This document shows, piece after piece, positions 17,037-22,918 of a stretch of DNA of 64,000 nucleotides. This DNA is from Flavobacteriales bacterium. GTDB lineage: Bacteria > Bacteroidota > Bacteroidia > Flavobacteriales_F > PHOS-HE28. The stretch spans positions 24,571 through 88,570 of the forward strand of contig JADKJM010000007.1 in NCBI GenBank assembly GCA_016721005.1. Reading direction: 5' to 3'. How positions within the stretch are numbered: the stretch's first letter is position 1; each line of letters begins with the position of its first letter. A program made the translations under genes and the position numbers. The notes under the pieces are model-generated. The model worked only from the letters and a program-made list of their open reading frames with translations. It was not told the origin of the DNA and did not search any database.

Positions 17037-17067
17037 GTTGCGTGTTGCCAACAAATCCTGAACGCCA

Positions 17068-18036
17068 ATGAGTCAGCCCAAGGAACTCAGAGAAATGAGA
17101 AAGATTCTTGAAGCGATTGACAAGAACGTCAATTCAAAATCTTGGCCGTGCTTGTATCCCGGCTGTCAAGAAGTAGCGATTAACTCGCATTTGCTGCAAC
17201 GCAATAGTGTCCTTTCAACATTAGTCGAGAATGGCCATCTCTACGAATTGAGCACCGCCGGTTCGTTCCAACTTGAGCCCGGCAGAATTCGCGAATTCAA
17301 GCTCACAAGTGCGAAGAAGGCTCTTTCAGAGCCGCTCTTCTGCAACCACCACGACCACTCGGTTTTCTTGCCTATCGAGTCAAACGATTCCGACTGGACT
17401 GCCTACGTCAACCAAATTCTCTTTGCATACAGGTCAACTTGTTCAGAGCTGCGAAAAAAGCAACGAGCGATTGAAACAGGACGCCGAAGAGCACAGTCCA
17501 ATATCCTCTCCGCCTCTTGGGCTCAGTCACGCGGTCCCCAAACTGTAGAAGAAATGCGGATGGGGATCGCTGACCTAGAGCATTTCAAACGCGACATGGA
17601 AGAGGACATCCTTAGCGGAACGAATCACTTTGAGTTCGTTACCTGCGACTTTCCCATACTAGACGTATGTGCATCTGCCGTTTTCACTCCCGTGGTTAAC
17701 CCAATCGCCAGCATGATTCCAGAGGAGCCCGTAAGCACGGAGTTCCTCAACATCATTCCGACAAATGGCAGACTCAAGGTCATCGTAGGCCATCACAAGA
17801 TTCACGTCGACAGTCCGACGTTGAGCCATGTCCATGAATGGTCCAAGATGGATGCTGAGGCTTTAGAGCAAAAGCTCACGAACCTATTCGCCTCTCGCTT
17901 GGAGACTTGGTGTTTGAGCCCAAGGCTCTATAGGCAAATTCCGAAGGGTAAACTGACCGGAATCTTACAGTTCTGGAACAATCCTGCCCATCATCACCTC
18001 TATGAGGAACAAGTCGACTTCAACCTATTTAGATGA
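17068..18036 (+). CDS. Hypothetical protein with Cys/His motifs (SEC-C-associated / His-Me-finger-like)
   Basis: CLYPGC...AINSHLLQ and LFCNHHDHSVF..IE motifs; lower GC and different codon usage by eye. Confidence 0.6.
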   Translation: MSQPKELREMRKILEAIDKNVNSKSWPCLYPGCQEVAINSHLLQRNSVLSTLVENGHLYELSTAGSFQLEPGRIREFKLTSAKKALSEPLFCNHHDHSVFLPIESNDSDWTAYVNQILFAYRSTCSELRKKQRAIETGRRRAQSNILSASWAQSRGPQTVEEMRMGIADLEHFKRDMEEDILSGTNHFEFVTCDFPILDVCASAVFTPVVNPIASMIPEEPVSTEFLNIIPTNGRLKVIVGHHKIHVDSPTLSHVHEWSKMDAEALEQKLTNLFASRLETWCLSPRLYRQIPKGKLTGILQFWNNPAHHHLYEEQVDFNLFR

Positions 18037-18157
18037 CCAACCGACAACAATGGCCGTGCCCTTGGGCCAGTGTCGACGTTACTAACACCTGTTAGGAACT
18101 CGCCTTGGGGCTTCGCTTCCCGCGCGGGTACTTTGCTGCCGCCTAAGCCAAGGCTGA

Positions 18158-19381
18158 ATGCAGCTCACCCCAAAACGTTTCTTCGACTTCTGCGCAGCGC
18201 ACGTGCCGCTGTTGCACGCCATCGCCATGAAGCCCGGCGATGTGAGCGAGGCGCAGGTCCGCCAGCTCATCCGCACCTTCAGCGACACCGCGGTGGAACA
18301 ACCCGAGACCACTTGGCAGCGGTTGCTGGAACTCCAGATCATCGTTCCGCTGGAGGAAGGCAGCGCGCACTACGTGATGTCGCAGGCGCTGTTGCAACTG
18401 CTCAACTTCCTGTACAACGACGCACTACCGACATCGCCGGAGATCATCCAGGGCTACATCGCCGCGTTGGAAAGTGCGCGCATGCGGTTGGTGGTTGGTG
18501 TGGAAGCGATGGACCCGCTCAGCGTACACATGGCCACGAGCGAAGTGGACCACACGCTGCGTCGCATGCAGGACGACCTCGATGCCACGCACCGCGCAGT
18601 GATGGCCGAAGTGGCGCGCTACAAGGCGGACCGCACGAGCGTGAGTGTGCGCGAACGCTACCTGCGGATCCTGAACCTGATGGATCAGTACGTGCATCCG
18701 CTGGTGGAGATCGTTCGTGTGGACGGCTTGCTGGTGGGCACCTTGAACGAAACGGATCTTGCGCTGCGCGCGGCGCGCGAGAACGGCGTGTTCACGGAGA
18801 TCGGGATGATCGAGCGCAACGAGCGGCAGATCCGCGCACTGCGCCGCCGTTCCATCCACACGCTGAACGAGAGCCGCAAGGAATTGCAGCCACTCTATGA
18901 AGTGCTGCGTCGTTCCTCGGCGATCGCACACGGCGCCACGCTCGCACTCGGTCGTTTGCGCCAGATGCGCTTGGAGGATTGGGTGGCGAACTATGTGGTA
19001 CTGGCCGATCGCGCCAGTGTGGAGTGTCCGCCGACGGATGCGGTGTTGCGCCACATCATCCACGAGGTGATCACGCACCCACCGACACCACCACCGGTGC
19101 TCTCGATGACCGAGAATCCCGACACGCCGCCGGATTACGTGCGCTTGCTGTGGCTGAACGAATTGCCCGCGATCCTGCACGAGGAGTTACCGGTGAAGGA
19201 TCTCACGGGCTGGCTCACCTCCAACTTCCCGGAGAAGAGCACCGGTGATGCATTGCTGGGTCTGAGCAAATTGCTCTTCGACCCGACGATGGACGTCACC
19301 TTCAAGGGCGGAGAACAGAAACAATACCGCACGCGCGACGGCGTGCTCGAAGCCACCACGATAGCGATCACGAAAGCATGA
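18158..19381 (+). CDS. mksF: MksF/JetA (MukF-like kleisin) subunit of an MksBEF-type SMC complex
   Basis: Recalled similarity to the Pseudomonas Mks ~410-aa subunit (SVRERYLRILNLMDQYVHPLVEIVRVDG; LQPLYEVLRRSSAIAHGATLAL); first gene of the F-E-B operon. Confidence 0.75.
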   Translation: MQLTPKRFFDFCAAHVPLLHAIAMKPGDVSEAQVRQLIRTFSDTAVEQPETTWQRLLELQIIVPLEEGSAHYVMSQALLQLLNFLYNDALPTSPEIIQGYIAALESARMRLVVGVEAMDPLSVHMATSEVDHTLRRMQDDLDATHRAVMAEVARYKADRTSVSVRERYLRILNLMDQYVHPLVEIVRVDGLLVGTLNETDLALRAARENGVFTEIGMIERNERQIRALRRRSIHTLNESRKELQPLYEVLRRSSAIAHGATLALGRLRQMRLEDWVANYVVLADRASVECPPTDAVLRHIIHEVITHPPTPPPVLSMTENPDTPPDYVRLLWLNELPAILHEELPVKDLTGWLTSNFPEKSTGDALLGLSKLLFDPTMDVTFKGGEQKQYRTRDGVLEATTIAITKA

Positions 19382-19956
19382 GCGAGCTACCCCAACTGAA
19401 GGAGATCTTCGACAAGCTCCGACAAGGCGCCTACATCACGCACGAGCAGGGAACCCTGCACACCTCGCTCGCCGAGGATTTCGATGCTTACAAGGATTAC
19501 TTCGAGCCGTTGGGCCTGAACCTGATCCGCCACCCGCGCGACTTCTTCTACCTGCACACCGAAGCCGCCGAGGGAACCCCGCCATCCGCTTCCCTCTCGC
19601 CCATCGCCGTGTTCAGCTTCATCCTCATCGAAGCTGCCGCGAACGAAGGACGACCCGTGGAGGAATACCTGCTCACCGAGCGCTTCAGCGTAGCCGGTCT
19701 GCCGCACCTTACCAGCGATCGATACAAAGCGCATTTGCGCGCGGTCGGCATTGATGATGAGGCCACATTGCGCAAACTGGTGAAGAGCATGGTGCGCCTC
19801 GGCTGGGTGGAATACTTCCCGGACGACACCTTCCGCTTCCTGCGTCCGTTCCATCGTGTGTTCGACAAGTGCCAAGAGATCAGCGCAGCGGCCGAACAGG
19901 ATAGTCGCGGTGTGTTGGAGCCGGTGGAGAAGGAGATCGACCCGGAGATGAATTAA
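19378..19956 (+). CDS. mksE: MksE/JetB (MukE-like KITE) subunit
   Basis: IFDKLRQGAYI, YFEPLGLNLIRHPRDFFYL winged-helix pattern; ATGA overlap with mksF. Confidence 0.75.
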   Translation: MSELPQLKEIFDKLRQGAYITHEQGTLHTSLAEDFDAYKDYFEPLGLNLIRHPRDFFYLHTEAAEGTPPSASLSPIAVFSFILIEAAANEGRPVEEYLLTERFSVAGLPHLTSDRYKAHLRAVGIDDEATLRKLVKSMVRLGWVEYFPDDTFRFLRPFHRVFDKCQEISAAAEQDSRGVLEPVEKEIDPEMN

Positions 19957-19958
19957 GG

Positions 19959-20091
19959 TACCGCAAAGGGCGCGAAGGACACAAAGGAGAAATGCCAGTG
20001 CCCCATGGAGTACCCAAATAGCGTCAGAAGTCGACCAACACATATGAACCCGAACGCCGCATTCTTCGTGCACTTTGTGCTCTTTGCGGTA
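19959..20091. repeat. Inverted-repeat (REP/MITE-like) element between mksE and mksB
   Basis: Arms TACCGCAAAG-GGCGCGAAG-GACACAAAG and CTTCGTGCA-CTTTGTGCT-CTTTGCGGTA with 9-bp internal periodicity. Confidence 0.75.
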
Positions 20092-20110
20092 TCCATCAGC
20101 CTTTGATCGC

Positions 20111-22834
20111 ATGCAACTAGGACCAACGAAACTCATCGCCATCCGCTCCGGTAGCTACGACTACGCTGAAGTGGAGTTGGGCAATTCCATCCAACTGGTC
20201 GGACCGAACAACGCGGGCAAGACCACGTTGATCAACACCCTGCAGTTCCTGTACCTCGACAACCGGAACCAGATGGTCTTCGGCGACCACGATGCGGAGG
20301 CGACGCGCGAGTACTACTTCCCCGATCACTACAGCTACTTGCTGTTCGAGTGCCAAGGACCGAAGGGTATATACATCCTCGGCTGGCGCGGACAGAGCAA
20401 GGCGAGCGGCGGCGATCCCATCCGCTTCACGTATGATGGCGGATACGACATGAGCGATTTCCTGACGGCTGATGACCACGTGGCCGATCCGAAGACCGTG
20501 CTGGCGCAACTGGAGAAGCGCAACTACCGCGAACTCCGCGAACCGCAGGCACACCGTGAAGCGATCCTGGTGGCCACCAAGGGCGAGAGCAACGGCCTCG
20601 GCATTGTTCACCTGACGGAAGTGGAACGTTACGCGCACTTCAAGGAGATCCTGAAGAACCTGCTCAGCCTACGCTCCATCGACCAGCACGAGATGAAGCG
20701 CAGTTTGCTCATGCTCGCGAGCATTCCACCGAACAAGCCTGCGCTCGAAGCGAACCGCTTGATGACGGAGGAGTTCGAACGCATCCGCGACCGTCGGATG
20801 AAGTTGAACACGCTGAAGAGCGAACGCGAGCGGCTGGAGAAGTACATCGCGATGAGCGATGTGCGCATGTCCTTGGAAGCACGCCTCGCACATGTGTACG
20901 GCGACCTCATGGAGAAGCGTCGCAAGGCGCACGACCACAACAAACATGTGAAGGAGGCCATCGTGGCCAAGCAGGACGCGTTGGAGAAGGAGAAACTGAG
21001 CACGGCAGAGATCCTTAAGGACCTCGACGAGAAGATCGCCGAACTCGCCGGCTTCAAAGGCCGCGCGGAAGGCGACCTTGCACGCATCGCCGATCTGGGT
21101 GCTGGCATGGAGCAGTTCGTGGAGAACCTGGAACGCGAAGCGTTGGTGAATGCCAAGGAGCGCCTCACCGCACTCGCAAGACAACTCGGCAACGCACAGG
21201 AAGCGGATCGCCAACGCACCGCGCGCAGCCTCGCGGAGATCACCGGTCGCGTGGCGAATACGGAGAAGGCCATCGCCAACTTCGACAAGGCACTCATCAC
21301 CGAACTGCGCGAAACGCTGAAGGACGAGGAGGTACGCGGGCTGTCCAAGCTCTTCAACCTGGACCTGCTGAAGTTGCCCGTGGAAAAAGGTGGCGTGGAG
21401 TTGAAGAAGCGCAAGCAGATCGACACGTTATTGAAGAGCATCGCGGAGAACATCACCGACGACAAGTACGCCGATGCGTTGATGACACTGCCTTTGCCGG
21501 ACAACAGCCACGCATGGAAGGAACTGGTGGATGTGAAGGCGTTGAAGAAATCGCTCACCGACCTGAAGGCGGAGCAACACCGCTTGCAGCAGTTGATGGA
21601 GGCGATCGAGAACCGCGAGCAGATCGCGAAGGAGCGCACCACCGTGCAGGAGGAATGCGACGCGCACGTAGAGACCCTGAGCCGTTGGGAACGCTTGCAG
21701 GTGGAACGCCGCGAGGAGCCCCGCTTGAAGCAGCGCTTGGCTGAAGTGAGCAAGGAGAAGGCGGGATCCGAGGCCAAGCGACTCGAGACGCGCAAGCTCC
21801 TGGATGAACTTTCCGCGAAGCTCTACGAGCAACGCACCGCCTTGAACCAGGAGGACGATCGCTTCAATCGCCTGCTGCGGTTGATGGAACAGTGCGTCGC
21901 ACCGCCCGACCCGAGTGCAAAGAGCAAGGATCCCATGGCCGTGCCCACCGATCCGGAGGACGCCATCGCGCTCTACCACAAGATGACGCTGGAGTTCAGC
22001 ACCATGTCCCGCGACATGGACCAGCTGCGCAGCAAGATCGAGAACGTGCTGAAGAGCGATATCATCGGCGCCACGGAACAGGAGACCATCCGCTTGATCA
22101 AGGAACAGATCGAGGGCTTGCCCACCTTCGAGGAAGCGTTGCGCAAGGACTGGGACAACTACCTGCACCTGCTCCGCGCCAACTTCGCCAACGTTCTCAA
22201 CGGACTCACCGACATCAAGAACGCTGCGGAGAAATTGAACCGCCGCTTCAGCAAGGTCAGCGTCTCCAACCTGGAAAGCCTGCGGATGGACGTGATGGAC
22301 CAGAGCGATCTGGTGGGACCACTGAAGGAACTTGCCGAGACGGATCACACCGGCCTCTTCGACAGCAGCAGCAAGCTCGACGCCGCCTACCAGAGCTTCC
22401 GCAACAAACTGAGTGAGCGCATCACGCTGAACTACGGCGATCTGTTCACGCTGCGCTTCACCGTGACCACGCAAGGCGGTCGCACACACAGCTACGACAA
22501 CCTACAGGTGGAATCGCACGGTACCGCCATCACCATCAAGGTGCTCTTCAACCTGCTCGTGTTGCGCAGCATGCTGAAGGAGGATCCGAAGAAGCGCTCG
22601 CCGCTGTCACGCGTGCCCTTCTTCCTCGACGAGATCCACTCGCTGGATGCCACCAACCGCGCTGCGGTATTGCGCATGAGCAGGGACCTCGGCTTCATGG
22701 CCATCACCGCCGCACCGGAACCCGTGAGCGAAGTGGACGCCCTCTACTTCCTGCGTCCGATCAATGGCCGCTTGGTGGTGCGCAACGAACTGCGGATCGG
22801 CGTGAAGTACGATGAGGTGTTAGCGGAGGCGTAG
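20111..22834 (+). CDS. mksB: MksB/JetC SMC-family ATPase
   Basis: Walker A GPNNAGKT, long coiled coils, signature ESHGT, Walker B/D-loop FFLDEIHSLD. Confidence 0.88.
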   Translation: MQLGPTKLIAIRSGSYDYAEVELGNSIQLVGPNNAGKTTLINTLQFLYLDNRNQMVFGDHDAEATREYYFPDHYSYLLFECQGPKGIYILGWRGQSKASGGDPIRFTYDGGYDMSDFLTADDHVADPKTVLAQLEKRNYRELREPQAHREAILVATKGESNGLGIVHLTEVERYAHFKEILKNLLSLRSIDQHEMKRSLLMLASIPPNKPALEANRLMTEEFERIRDRRMKLNTLKSERERLEKYIAMSDVRMSLEARLAHVYGDLMEKRRKAHDHNKHVKEAIVAKQDALEKEKLSTAEILKDLDEKIAELAGFKGRAEGDLARIADLGAGMEQFVENLEREALVNAKERLTALARQLGNAQEADRQRTARSLAEITGRVANTEKAIANFDKALITELRETLKDEEVRGLSKLFNLDLLKLPVEKGGVELKKRKQIDTLLKSIAENITDDKYADALMTLPLPDNSHAWKELVDVKALKKSLTDLKAEQHRLQQLMEAIENREQIAKERTTVQEECDAHVETLSRWERLQVERREEPRLKQRLAEVSKEKAGSEAKRLETRKLLDELSAKLYEQRTALNQEDDRFNRLLRLMEQCVAPPDPSAKSKDPMAVPTDPEDAIALYHKMTLEFSTMSRDMDQLRSKIENVLKSDIIGATEQETIRLIKEQIEGLPTFEEALRKDWDNYLHLLRANFANVLNGLTDIKNAAEKLNRRFSKVSVSNLESLRMDVMDQSDLVGPLKELAETDHTGLFDSSSKLDAAYQSFRNKLSERITLNYGDLFTLRFTVTTQGGRTHSYDNLQVESHGTAITIKVLFNLLVLRSMLKEDPKKRSPLSRVPFFLDEIHSLDATNRAAVLRMSRDLGFMAITAAPEPVSEVDALYFLRPINGRLVVRNELRIGVKYDEVLAEA

Positions 22835-22855: not shown

Positions 22856-22884
22856 AAGAACCCCGGCTTGGTCGGGGTTCTTTC
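22856..22884 (+). terminator. Rho-independent terminator after mksB
   Basis: AAGAACCCCGGC-ttg-GTCGGGGTTCTTTC. Confidence 0.75.
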
Positions 22885-22918
22885 GTTCCGGATCATTCTC
22901 CCGGTACCTTCCGTCGCG

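What the first reader, a model, noticed from the sequence alone, without database searches (positions are those of the whole stretch)
18158..22834. Pseudomonas-type MksF-E-B SMC complex in a Bacteroidota genome, without MksG/JetD
Seen: a three-gene operon with a kleisin-like, a KITE-like and a 908-aa SMC ATPase with intact Walker A/B and signature, closed by a terminator. No Toprim nuclease gene lies on either side, and codon usage is host-like. Knowledge: JetABCD/MksBEFG restricts plasmids through JetD, while nuclease-less MksBEF in Pseudomonas aeruginosa acts as a condensin. Inference: a long-resident complex serving as a chromosome organiser in this lineage, or a Wadjet variant using a different or distant effector.
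Basis: partly seen in the sequence, partly recalled or inferred. Interest (0 to 1): 0.65.

Follow-up and report, generated by a model that had tools for sequence, protein, structure and literature searches.

The report
Nuclease-less MksFEB SMC operon, Flavobacteriales
This is a real three-gene MukBEF-like (MksF-MksE-MksB) SMC operon in an uncultured wastewater Flavobacteriales bacterium; its relatives in other phyla, on plasmids and in one sister lineage carry a fourth, JetD/MksG-like nuclease gene that this lineage has lost. It is a new member of a known kind rather than a new system.

Summary
Window 18158-22834 encodes three genes:
- a kleisin-size protein of 407 aa;
- an MksE/MukE-type KITE protein of 192 aa;
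- a MukB-like SMC ATPase of 907 aa (not 908; ATG at 20111) with Walker A, S-x-G signature and Walker B intact.

A terminator-like hairpin follows. No JetD/MksG gene lies anywhere in the 64 kb.

The new fact is evolutionary. In Verrucomicrobiota, Acidobacteriota, four plasmids and one Flavobacteriales MAG, the same operon has a fourth gene of about 285 aa that overlaps the SMC stop codon. Its predicted fold matches TopoVI-A, MksG and JetD, and the E, DxD and ExE acidic residues are invariant. About 50 Flavobacteriales species-level MAGs lack this gene. Their three genes sit at a fixed core-genome site after groESL, and in the pairs tested they are under strong purifying selection (dN/dS 0.04-0.2).

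The operon is therefore a long-resident, nuclease-less derivative of a Wadjet-like four-gene system. It parallels what the literature proposes for Pseudomonas aeruginosa MksBEF.

A chromosome-organising role is the most likely function, but this is inferred and untested. A defence role without the nuclease is not excluded.

Novelty: new member of a known kind; moderate interest.

The parts
18158..19381 (+). mksF-like kleisin gene (407 aa). The libraries call this family 'MksB', which is swapped relative to the literature.
   Evidence: NCBIfam NF040857 at 1.2e-17 over positions 3-408 of 412. Homologues carry the precomputed Pfam family PF28010. Present in every related locus that holds enough DNA. 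dN/dS 0.04-0.2. A family profile finds no solved structure by sequence, and its fold was not modelled.
19378..19956 (+). mksE (KITE subunit, 192 aa). Its start overlaps the mksF stop by 4 nt. Residues 10-13 read IFDK.
   Evidence: Pfam MksE PF21980 at 3.5e-27, above the cut-off. NCBIfam MksE at 8.7e-19. A family profile hits MukE chains in the PDB at 4e-9. The IFD[RK] motif is conserved across the family.
20111..22834 (+). mksB-like SMC ATPase gene (907 aa), with a MukB-like head, a short coiled-coil arm and a hinge.
   Evidence: NCBIfam NF040859 at 2.5e-39. AF2 model with pLDDT 73 and SMC topology. Foldseek finds MukB at 1e-20 and JetC at 6e-13 to 1e-10. There are 329 clusters at 50% identity with E <= 1e-30.
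20201..20224 (+). Walker A motif (GPNNAGKT)
   Evidence: G.N..GK[TS] is present in 67 of 67 family members.
22511..22525 (+). Signature-like motif (ESHGT; S-x-G, as in MukB by my recollection)
   Evidence: Present in 63 of 67 members and invariant in alignment A1.
22616..22648 (+). Walker B (PFFLDE) and D-loop (HSLD)
22857..22887 (+). Terminator-like hairpin (11 bp, GC-rich) with a weak U tract; it closes the operon where relatives have the fourth gene.
   Evidence: -24.2 kcal/mol, z = -2.75. Not listed by the consensus scan.

Best explanation
Shown:
- The locus is a three-gene operon. It encodes a MukBEF-like SMC complex made of a kleisin (MksF-like), a KITE subunit (MksE) and a 907-aa MukB-like ATPase (MksB-like).
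- It belongs to a superfamily of a few hundred clusters at 50% identity. The usual layout in that superfamily is four genes. The fourth is a protein of about 285 aa with a winged-helix/CAP part and a Toprim part. It has the JetD/MksG/TopoVI-A fold and is translationally coupled to the SMC gene.
- In the uncultured wastewater Flavobacteriales clade of this window, the operon sits directly after groESL in the core genome. Every lineage but one has lost the nuclease gene.
- In the pairs tested, the three remaining genes stay under strong purifying selection.

Inferred:
- Without its nuclease, the complex still loads on DNA as an ATP-driven, loop-extruding SMC dimer.
- It has been domesticated for a chromosomal task: long-range chromosome folding and segregation support, as shown for the nuclease-less MksBEF of Pseudomonas aeruginosa. 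It no longer cleaves plasmids.
For: Identity of the three proteins.

Four-gene layout in relatives:
- Nearly all Verrucomicrobiota and Acidobacteriota loci have it.
- Four plasmids have it: Salinibacter ruber pSR76, Neptuniibacter pLMG25378, Pseudomonas amygdali pMPPla107 and Polaromonas pPNAP02. Their fourth genes hit the G4 HMM at 6e-62 to 2e-11.

The fourth gene is JetD/MksG-like:
- Invariant E151, D199/D201 and E275/E277. These correspond to MksG E236, D279 and E349/E351 (PMC10123090).
- 13 of 28 members hit Pfam JetD_C.
- The AF2 model has pLDDT 88. Foldseek matches TopoVI-A at 7e-5, C. glutamicum MksG (8b7f) at 1.7e-4 and P. aeruginosa JetD (7til) at 1.8e-4.

Loss in Flavobacteriales:
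- Only L039 keeps the gene. It is 37-45% identical to gene-four proteins outside the clade, the same divergence as the SMC.
- Its sister L034 has a clean replacement of the 994-bp gene-four segment by 250 bp, with flanks 81-84% identical.
- L039 is nested among lineages that lack the gene.
- No other close homologue from the clade exists among 5.8e9 proteins.

Domestication:
- The order miaB, sigma-54 activator, lptE, TPR, secG, groES, groEL, mksFEB is conserved across the clade.
- GC3 is host-like.
- dN/dS is 0.04-0.07 against the 98%-identical relative and 0.10-0.21 against others. This is as low as in nuclease-bearing pairs.
- ATPase motifs are invariant.
- The variable slot next to the operon mostly holds ordinary cargo: GGT, T9SS proteins, LuxR and DinB.
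- Sparse metatranscriptome contigs lie on mksF and mksB.

Against: - No functional data exist for any member of this clade, and all members are uncultured.
- I could not check whether these genomes also carry Smc-ScpAB, or a JetD-type gene outside the window.
- The N-terminal IFD[RK] motif of MksE corresponds to the JetB motif reported to contact JetD. It is retained in the nuclease-less lineages. This could mean that a partner still docks there.
- In one relative (L001) the operon is flanked by a GmrSD-type restriction enzyme and an AAA_16 ATPase.
- The family's ancestry and its presence on plasmids point to defence.
- RNA evidence is weak: depth is 2-5, the contigs are 92-99% alike, and DNA carry-over is possible.
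Confidence: 0.55

Rival explanations
1. The complex is still a defence system against plasmids or other mobile DNA. It works without its own nuclease, either by compacting or silencing small circular DNA (as Smc5/6 does) or by recruiting an effector encoded elsewhere.
For: - The ancestral and widespread layout is four genes with a Toprim nuclease, including on plasmids.
- The MksE IFD[RK] motif, which corresponds to the JetD-contacting motif of JetB, is retained in nuclease-less lineages.
- L001 has a GmrSD restriction enzyme and an AAA_16 ATPase next to the operon.
- Both flanks of the operon are variable.
Against: - No homologue of the fourth gene from this clade exists among 5.8e9 proteins, apart from L039's and one orphan fragment.
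- The neighbours in the variable slot are mostly not defence genes.
- The upstream gene orf322 is a strain-specific insertion. It is absent from the 98%-identical relative and from all 84 loci.
- A fixed core-genome site and uniform retention across about 50 species are unusual for defence systems, which typically come and go.
Confidence: 0.3
2. The complex serves another DNA transaction on the chromosome rather than global chromosome folding. Examples are repair or replication-linked tasks, as reported for mycobacterial MksB in positioning the replication machinery.
For: - In Verrucomicrobiota the operon directly follows dnaE.
- The arms are short: 907 aa against about 1480 aa for MukB.
- PMC11329512, seen by title and abstract only, reports a replisome-positioning role for a mycobacterial MksB.
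Against: Nothing in the Flavobacteriales context points to repair or replication genes; the neighbours are groESL and a sensor kinase.
Confidence: 0.1
3. The operon is a decaying remnant of a defence system that lost its effector and is on its way to deletion.
For: The nuclease gene is gone. The mksE-mksB spacer has grown from 2-12 nt in most four-gene operons to 4-207 nt (610 nt in one) in Flavobacteriales. A few loci show split SMC ORFs (L047, L049).
Against: - dN/dS is 0.04-0.2 for all three genes.
- The ORFs are intact and the ATPase motifs are invariant in nearly all of about 50 species.
- The split ORFs are in long-read assemblies and are probably sequencing errors.
Confidence: 0.03

Closest known systems
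MksBEF of Pseudomonas aeruginosa (mksF-mksE-mksB; Petrushenko 2011, Lioy 2020)
   Same: - Three genes in the same order and no MksG.
- Similar sizes: the models are 412, 232 and 926 aa against 407, 192 and 907 aa here.
- The only curated models that hit all three proteins.
- Chromosomal and long-resident.
- Proposed to derive from a JetD-bearing ancestor.
   Different: - Scores are far below the equivalog cut-offs (64/750, 68/400, 135/1900 bits), so this is a distant relative and not an orthologue.
- Different phylum.
- Function is untested here.
- I did not examine a Pseudomonas sequence directly.
Wadjet / JetABCD = MksBEFG (types I-III; Doron 2018, Deep 2022, Liu 2022, Weiss 2023)
   Same: - Kleisin, KITE and MukB-like SMC core.
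- Relatives of this operon carry a fourth, translationally coupled gene with the JetD/MksG fold and its acidic residues.
- MksE has the IFD[RK] N-terminal motif.
   Different: - This window has no nuclease gene.
- PADLOC's JetA and JetB models do not hit, and JetC gives only a Walker-A match.
- The family's nuclease is short (about 285 aa against 365-374 residues in the solved JetD and MksG chains) and below Pfam thresholds.
- The SMC is shorter.
- In structure searches MukB ranks above JetC.
MukBEF of Escherichia coli and relatives
   Same: The best structural match of the ATPase is MukB (1e-20), and the MksE family profile hits MukE (4e-9). The operon order is the same, and it is a nuclease-less chromosomal condensin.
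   Different: - The SMC is 907 aa against about 1480 aa.
- No NCBIfam MukB or MukF match, and only a weak MukE match at 0.0012.
- The kleisin and SMC profiles find no PDB sequence.

Membership tests
MksBEF (Muk-like SMC complexes) | Operon of kleisin, KITE and SMC-like ATPase genes in the order F-E-B | tested here: met
   The same order is found in all 84 related loci with enough DNA.
MksBEF (Muk-like SMC complexes) | KITE subunit belongs to the MksE family | tested here: met
   Pfam PF21980 at 96.2 bits against a cut-off of 27. The family profile hits MukE in the PDB at 4e-9.
MksBEF (Muk-like SMC complexes) | ATPase with MukB-like heads, an antiparallel coiled coil, a hinge, and intact Walker A, Walker B and signature motifs | tested here: met
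   AF2 topology. Foldseek finds MukB at 1e-20. Motifs. The model confidence is only moderate (pLDDT 73).
MksBEF (Muk-like SMC complexes) | Kleisin (MksF) with winged-helix domains that bridge the SMC heads | tested here: inconclusive
   There is a full-length but sub-threshold match to the kleisin-size Mks model (1.2e-17, 64 of 750 bits). Homologues carry PF28010. No PDB sequence match was found, and the fold was not modelled.
Pseudomonas-type Mks condensin (NCBIfam equivalogs NF040857, NF040858, NF040859) | Scores above the curated equivalog cut-offs | tested here: not met
   64 against 750, 68 against 400 and 135 against 1900 bits. These are the best-hitting models, but this is a distant subfamily.
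Wadjet / JetABCD (MksBEFG) | A JetD/MksG Toprim nuclease gene in the operon | tested here: not met
   Absent from the operon. No JetD/MksG-type gene was found in the 64-kb window: Pfam scans of most large ORFs and tblastn over the whole window. Absent within 10 kb in about 50 Flavobacteriales loci. Present in relatives from other phyla, in four plasmids and in L039.
Wadjet / JetABCD (MksBEFG) | JetA, JetB and JetC recognised by the defence-system models for types I-III | tested here: not met
   PADLOC gives no hit for the kleisin or the KITE protein. The SMC gives only a Walker-A-region match to JetC1 at 5.8e-5.
Wadjet / JetABCD (MksBEFG) | Restriction of small circular plasmids | not testable with these tools
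   This needs an experiment.
MukBEF | MukB, MukE and MukF orthologues (MukB about 1480 aa) | tested here: not met
   The SMC is 907 aa. Only a weak MukE match was found (0.0012). There are no MukB or MukF model hits.
Smc-ScpAB | Canonical Smc with ScpA and ScpB | tested here: not met
   None of the three proteins hits SMC_prok, ScpA or ScpB models. Whether the genome has a separate Smc-ScpAB was not testable.

The most novel reading that the evidence does not exclude
A family-level clade of Flavobacteriales caught in the act of turning a Wadjet-like plasmid-restriction machine into a nuclease-free chromosomal SMC complex. A living intermediate (L039) still carries the nuclease at the same locus. 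This would be a natural test of the proposed route from defence system to condensin for MksBEF and MukBEF. If these genomes lack Smc-ScpAB, it would also be a second independent replacement of the canonical condensin.
Probability: 0.35. Interest if true: 0.65.

Novelty: new member of a known kind. Interest (0 to 1): 0.42.

Why it matters
Reviews of SMC-based immunity propose that MksBEF, and perhaps MukBEF, arose from Wadjet by loss of the JetD nuclease. That idea rests on distant comparisons.

Here the same operon is seen at the same chromosomal site in closely related genomes with the nuclease gene (L039) and without it (L034, L038, this window). SMC proteins in this set are 74-85% identical. 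Selection on the three remaining genes is undiminished.

This gives matched gene sets for asking what an SMC defence motor does once its effector is gone.

It also shows that a sizeable four-gene Mks family with a miniature JetD is not recognised by the PADLOC v2.0 Wadjet models where tested. That family occurs on chromosomes of Verrucomicrobiota and Acidobacteriota and on plasmids of Pseudomonadota and Rhodothermota.

For genome annotation: these genes are mostly labelled 'hypothetical', or mislabelled as an ECF transporter ATPase (EcfA2), in public records.

Tried and rejected
1. **orf322 as an alternative effector (rejected).** The upstream 322-aa ORF (17068-18036) lies on a 1032-bp low-GC insertion. 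It is absent from the 98%-identical relative and has no homologue in any of the 84 loci. It belongs to a rare orphan family that is not linked to mks genes.

2. **The locus as a defence island (not supported).** The variable slot between groEL and mksF mostly holds GGT, T9SS cargo, LuxR and DinB genes. Only L001, L007 and L023 have an AAA_16 ATPase there, and L001 has a GmrSD enzyme downstream.

3. **Sequence-level links to solved structures (no result).** Profiles of the SMC, the kleisin and the fourth gene found no MukB, JetC, MukF, JetA or JetD chain. Only fold comparison made the link.

4. **Remnants of the fourth gene (none found).** tblastn found nothing downstream of the SMC gene in the window or in other Flavobacteriales loci.

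5. **Consensus terminator scan.** It did not list the hairpin after the operon. Folding supports the hairpin.

6. **Whole-genome search for smc/scpAB or jetD (not possible).** Only the window and 10-kb flanks of relatives were available.

7. **Reaching a true Pseudomonas MksB (not achieved).** All 24 distant family representatives hit the Pseudomonas-type model as their best family. The best E-value was 7.6e-140, below the cut-off.

Full report
**What is in the window**

The region 18158-22834 holds three co-directional ORFs with the high third-position GC content of real genes in this genome. GC3 is 0.78-0.83, against 0.65-0.87 for the other candidate ORFs.

- Gene 1 (18158-19381, 407 aa) overlaps gene 2 by 4 nt.
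- Gene 2 (19378-19956, 192 aa) is followed by a 154-nt spacer.
- Gene 3 starts at the ATG at 20111 and ends at 22834, giving 907 aa. This is the length of the identical database protein and of its homologues.

After the stop codon comes an 11-bp GC-rich hairpin (22857-22881) with a weak U tract. The 66-nt stretch around it folds at -24.2 kcal/mol, z = -2.75. A simple consensus scan did not list it.

The surroundings are housekeeping genes: gldK, gldL, porP, topA, miaB, lptE, secG and groES-groEL upstream. Downstream lie a Y_Y_Y sensor kinase and T9SS cargo proteins, and further on clpXP, tig and ruvC. These T9SS and gliding genes fit Bacteroidota. The nearest relatives are uncultured 'Flavobacteriales bacterium' MAGs from activated sludge and wastewater.

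**What the three proteins are**

- Gene 2 is an MksE-family KITE protein. It matches Pfam PF21980 at 3.5e-27, above the cut-off. A profile of its family finds MukE chains in the PDB at 4e-9.
- Gene 1 matches the 412-position NCBIfam Mks model end to end at 1.2e-17.
- Gene 3 matches the 926-position Mks model at 2.5e-39.

In the pre-computed tables, homologues carry the newer Pfam families PF28010, PF21980 and PF28007.

These libraries name the 412-aa model 'MksB' and the 926-aa model 'MksF'. In the literature the first gene (the kleisin) is mksF and the SMC gene is mksB (Lioy et al.). The library names are therefore swapped.

Gene 3 has Walker A GPNNAGKT, a signature-like ESHGT, Walker B PFFLDE and the D-loop. 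All are invariant in the family. Its AF2 model (pLDDT 73) runs head, coiled coil, hinge-like globule, coiled coil, head. Its best structural matches are MukB (1e-20), then JetC of Wadjet types II and I, then Rad50 and Smc5/6.

By sequence alone, neither the SMC nor the kleisin profile finds a solved structure. PADLOC's JetA, JetB and JetC models do not recognise the proteins beyond a Walker-A match.

So this is a MukBEF-like Mks complex, distant from Wadjet types I-III. It is also distant from the Pseudomonas orthologues: scores are 64/750, 68/400 and 135/1900 bits against the equivalog cut-offs.

**The fourth gene in relatives**

Homologues of the SMC fall into two groups. One is a Flavobacteriales clade at 69-100% identity. 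After a gap come Verrucomicrobiota, Acidobacteriota and others at 33-45%.

In the Verrucomicrobiota loci a 286-aa ORF starts 4 nt before the SMC stop codon.

I scanned one genome per species and obtained 80 loci. I then searched their six-frame ORFs with iterated profiles.
- The kleisin, MksE and SMC genes are present wherever there is enough DNA.
- The fourth gene ('G4') is present in nearly all loci outside Flavobacteriales.
- Within Flavobacteriales it is present in exactly one locus, L039.

G4 has invariant E (vENP), DYDPxG and GLEQE motifs. These correspond to the Mg-binding E236 and D279 and to the E349/E351 pair of C. glutamicum MksG (PMC10123090).
- 13 of 28 members hit Pfam JetD_C, 22 hit DUF7281 and 17 hit DUF2399, all weakly.
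- The AF2 model (pLDDT 88) matches TopoVI-A (7e-5), MksG 8b7f (1.7e-4), P. aeruginosa JetD 7til (1.8e-4) and Spo11.

G4 is therefore a miniature JetD/MksG.

More distant relatives on plasmids have the same four genes, with G4 HMM hits from 6e-62 to 2e-11. The plasmids are from Salinibacter ruber, Neptuniibacter halophilus, Pseudomonas amygdali and Polaromonas naphthalenivorans. For the two tested (Neptuniibacter and Polaromonas), the F, E and B proteins score higher on the Pseudomonas-type Mks models than the window's do; the SMC scores 293-301 bits. All 24 distant family representatives tested have that model as their best family.

The superfamily has 329 clusters at 50% identity with E <= 1e-30 among 1.84 billion representatives.

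**Loss of the nuclease in this lineage**

- L039's G4 is 37-45% identical to G4 proteins outside the clade. This matches the divergence of the SMC, so it came in with the operon.
- In a neighbour-joining tree of the SMC, L039 is nested in a basal Flavobacteriales subclade whose other members lack G4. A Verrucomicrobiota subclade also lacks it. The gene has therefore been lost more than once.
- Against its sister L034, the 994-bp segment holding G4 is replaced by 250 bp, between flanks that are 81-84% identical.
- No remnant of G4 is detectable in the window or in other Flavobacteriales loci.
- A search of 5.8 billion proteins with L039's G4 returned only 38 hits. From Flavobacteriales these were L039's own protein and one orphan 171-aa fragment beside a cation ATPase.

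A relocated copy in this clade is thus unlikely. The genome outside the window could not be searched.

**Residence and selection**

Across the Flavobacteriales clade the order is conserved: miaB, sigma-54 activator, lptE, TPR, secG, groES, groEL, mksFEB. A slot of 0-5 kb between groEL and mksF is variable. That slot mostly holds ordinary cargo: GGT, T9SS proteins, LuxR and DinB. An AAA_16 ATPase sits there in three loci.

In this window the slot holds a 1032-bp low-GC insertion (17042-18073). It carries a 322-aa orphan ORF that is missing from the 98%-identical relative. That ORF is not part of the system.

dN/dS for the three genes is 0.04-0.07 against the closest relative and 0.10-0.21 against others. 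This is no higher than in nuclease-bearing pairs, which give 0.07-0.24.

Sparse metatranscriptome contigs from activated sludge lie on mksF and mksB at depth 2-5. On groEL the depth reaches hundreds to thousands. This is weak evidence of low-level transcription.

**Interpretation**

Shown:
- It is a real MksFEB-type SMC operon.
- It is nuclease-less by secondary loss.
- It has been fixed at a core-genome site and under purifying selection through the radiation of a family-level clade.

Inferred:
- It works as an ATP-driven SMC motor on the host chromosome, like the nuclease-less MksBEF of P. aeruginosa. That complex promotes long-range contacts and supports segregation. [quoted passage not shown]

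The main rival is a nuclease-independent or trans-effector defence role. Points that keep it alive:
- The family's defence ancestry.
- Its presence on plasmids.
- One relative flanked by GmrSD.
- Retention of the MksE N-terminal IFD[RK] motif. This motif corresponds to the JetB motif reported to contact JetD.

A decaying-remnant reading is contradicted by the selection data.

**Comparison and novelty**

Three-gene MksBEF and four-gene MksBEFG forms have both been known since Petrushenko et al. 2011 (as cited). Current Pfam and NCBIfam models already cover this family. The finding is therefore a new member of a known kind.

What is modestly new:
- The phylum.
- The clade-wide fixation.
- A matched pair of nuclease-bearing and nuclease-less operons at one locus.
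- A sizeable four-gene Mks family with a short JetD that the PADLOC v2.0 Wadjet models do not recognise where tested.

Noticed in passing
window 17042-18073 (ORF 17068-18036, + strand): A 1032-bp low-GC insertion (GC3 0.57) lies between groEL and mksF. It carries a 322-aa ORF with no Pfam, NCBIfam or PADLOC hit. It is absent from the 98%-identical relative L083. Only 20 homologues exist among 5.8e9 proteins. Invariant motifs are INSHLLQ, H57 and FC..D. The one homologue context checked (L086) has no mks genes.
   Followed up: partly
window 19405-19416 (MksE residues 10-13): The MksE N-terminus carries IFDK here. Most four-gene relatives have IFDR. This matches the 'IFDR' motif of JetB that a review says contacts JetD. 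The motif is kept in lineages that have lost the nuclease.
   Followed up: partly
L039:12727-13605; also L002:12721-13581 and plasmid loci L087-L090: A family of proteins of about 285 aa with the JetD/MksG/TopoVI-A fold is translationally coupled to the Mks SMC gene. The proteins are below Pfam thresholds and are unannotated ('hypothetical protein') in the four plasmid records looked at and in the few named database entries.
   Followed up: yes
NCBIfam NF040857 and NF040859; Pfam PF28010 and PF28007: The model names look swapped relative to the literature. 'MksB' is the 412-aa kleisin-size model and 'MksF' is the 926-aa SMC-size model. In P. aeruginosa the operon runs mksF-mksE-mksB and MksB is the SMC.
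   Followed up: partly
window 19957-20110: The mksE-mksB spacer is 154 nt here. It is 4-207 nt in other Flavobacteriales (610 nt in L066), but only 2-12 nt in most four-gene operons of other phyla. Its role is unknown.
   Followed up: no
L085:8056-8571: An orphan 171-aa fragment, 55% identical to the C-terminal part of L039's G4, sits next to a cation-transporting ATPase in another Flavobacteriales MAG. There are no mks genes on the 10-kb contig.
   Followed up: partly
L001:12830-14506 and L001:6701-7894: In the complete Flavobacteriales genome CP064979 the mks operon is flanked by a GmrSD-type (HEC-06) restriction enzyme downstream and an AAA_16 ATPase upstream. The AAA_16 gene recurs in L007 and L023.
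   Followed up: partly
L035 and L037 (both MAG JAEUSU01); L047, L049, L005: One MAG holds two complete groEL-mksFEB loci, so it is probably a mixed bin. Several long-read-based loci show SMC ORFs that are split or run on, probably from assembly errors.
   Followed up: no
L002:4583-8203 (and L003, L004): In the one Verrucomicrobiota contig family whose gene calls were read (L002-L004), the four-gene operon directly follows dnaE (the DNA polymerase III alpha subunit gene), with a gap of only about 5 nt.
   Followed up: no
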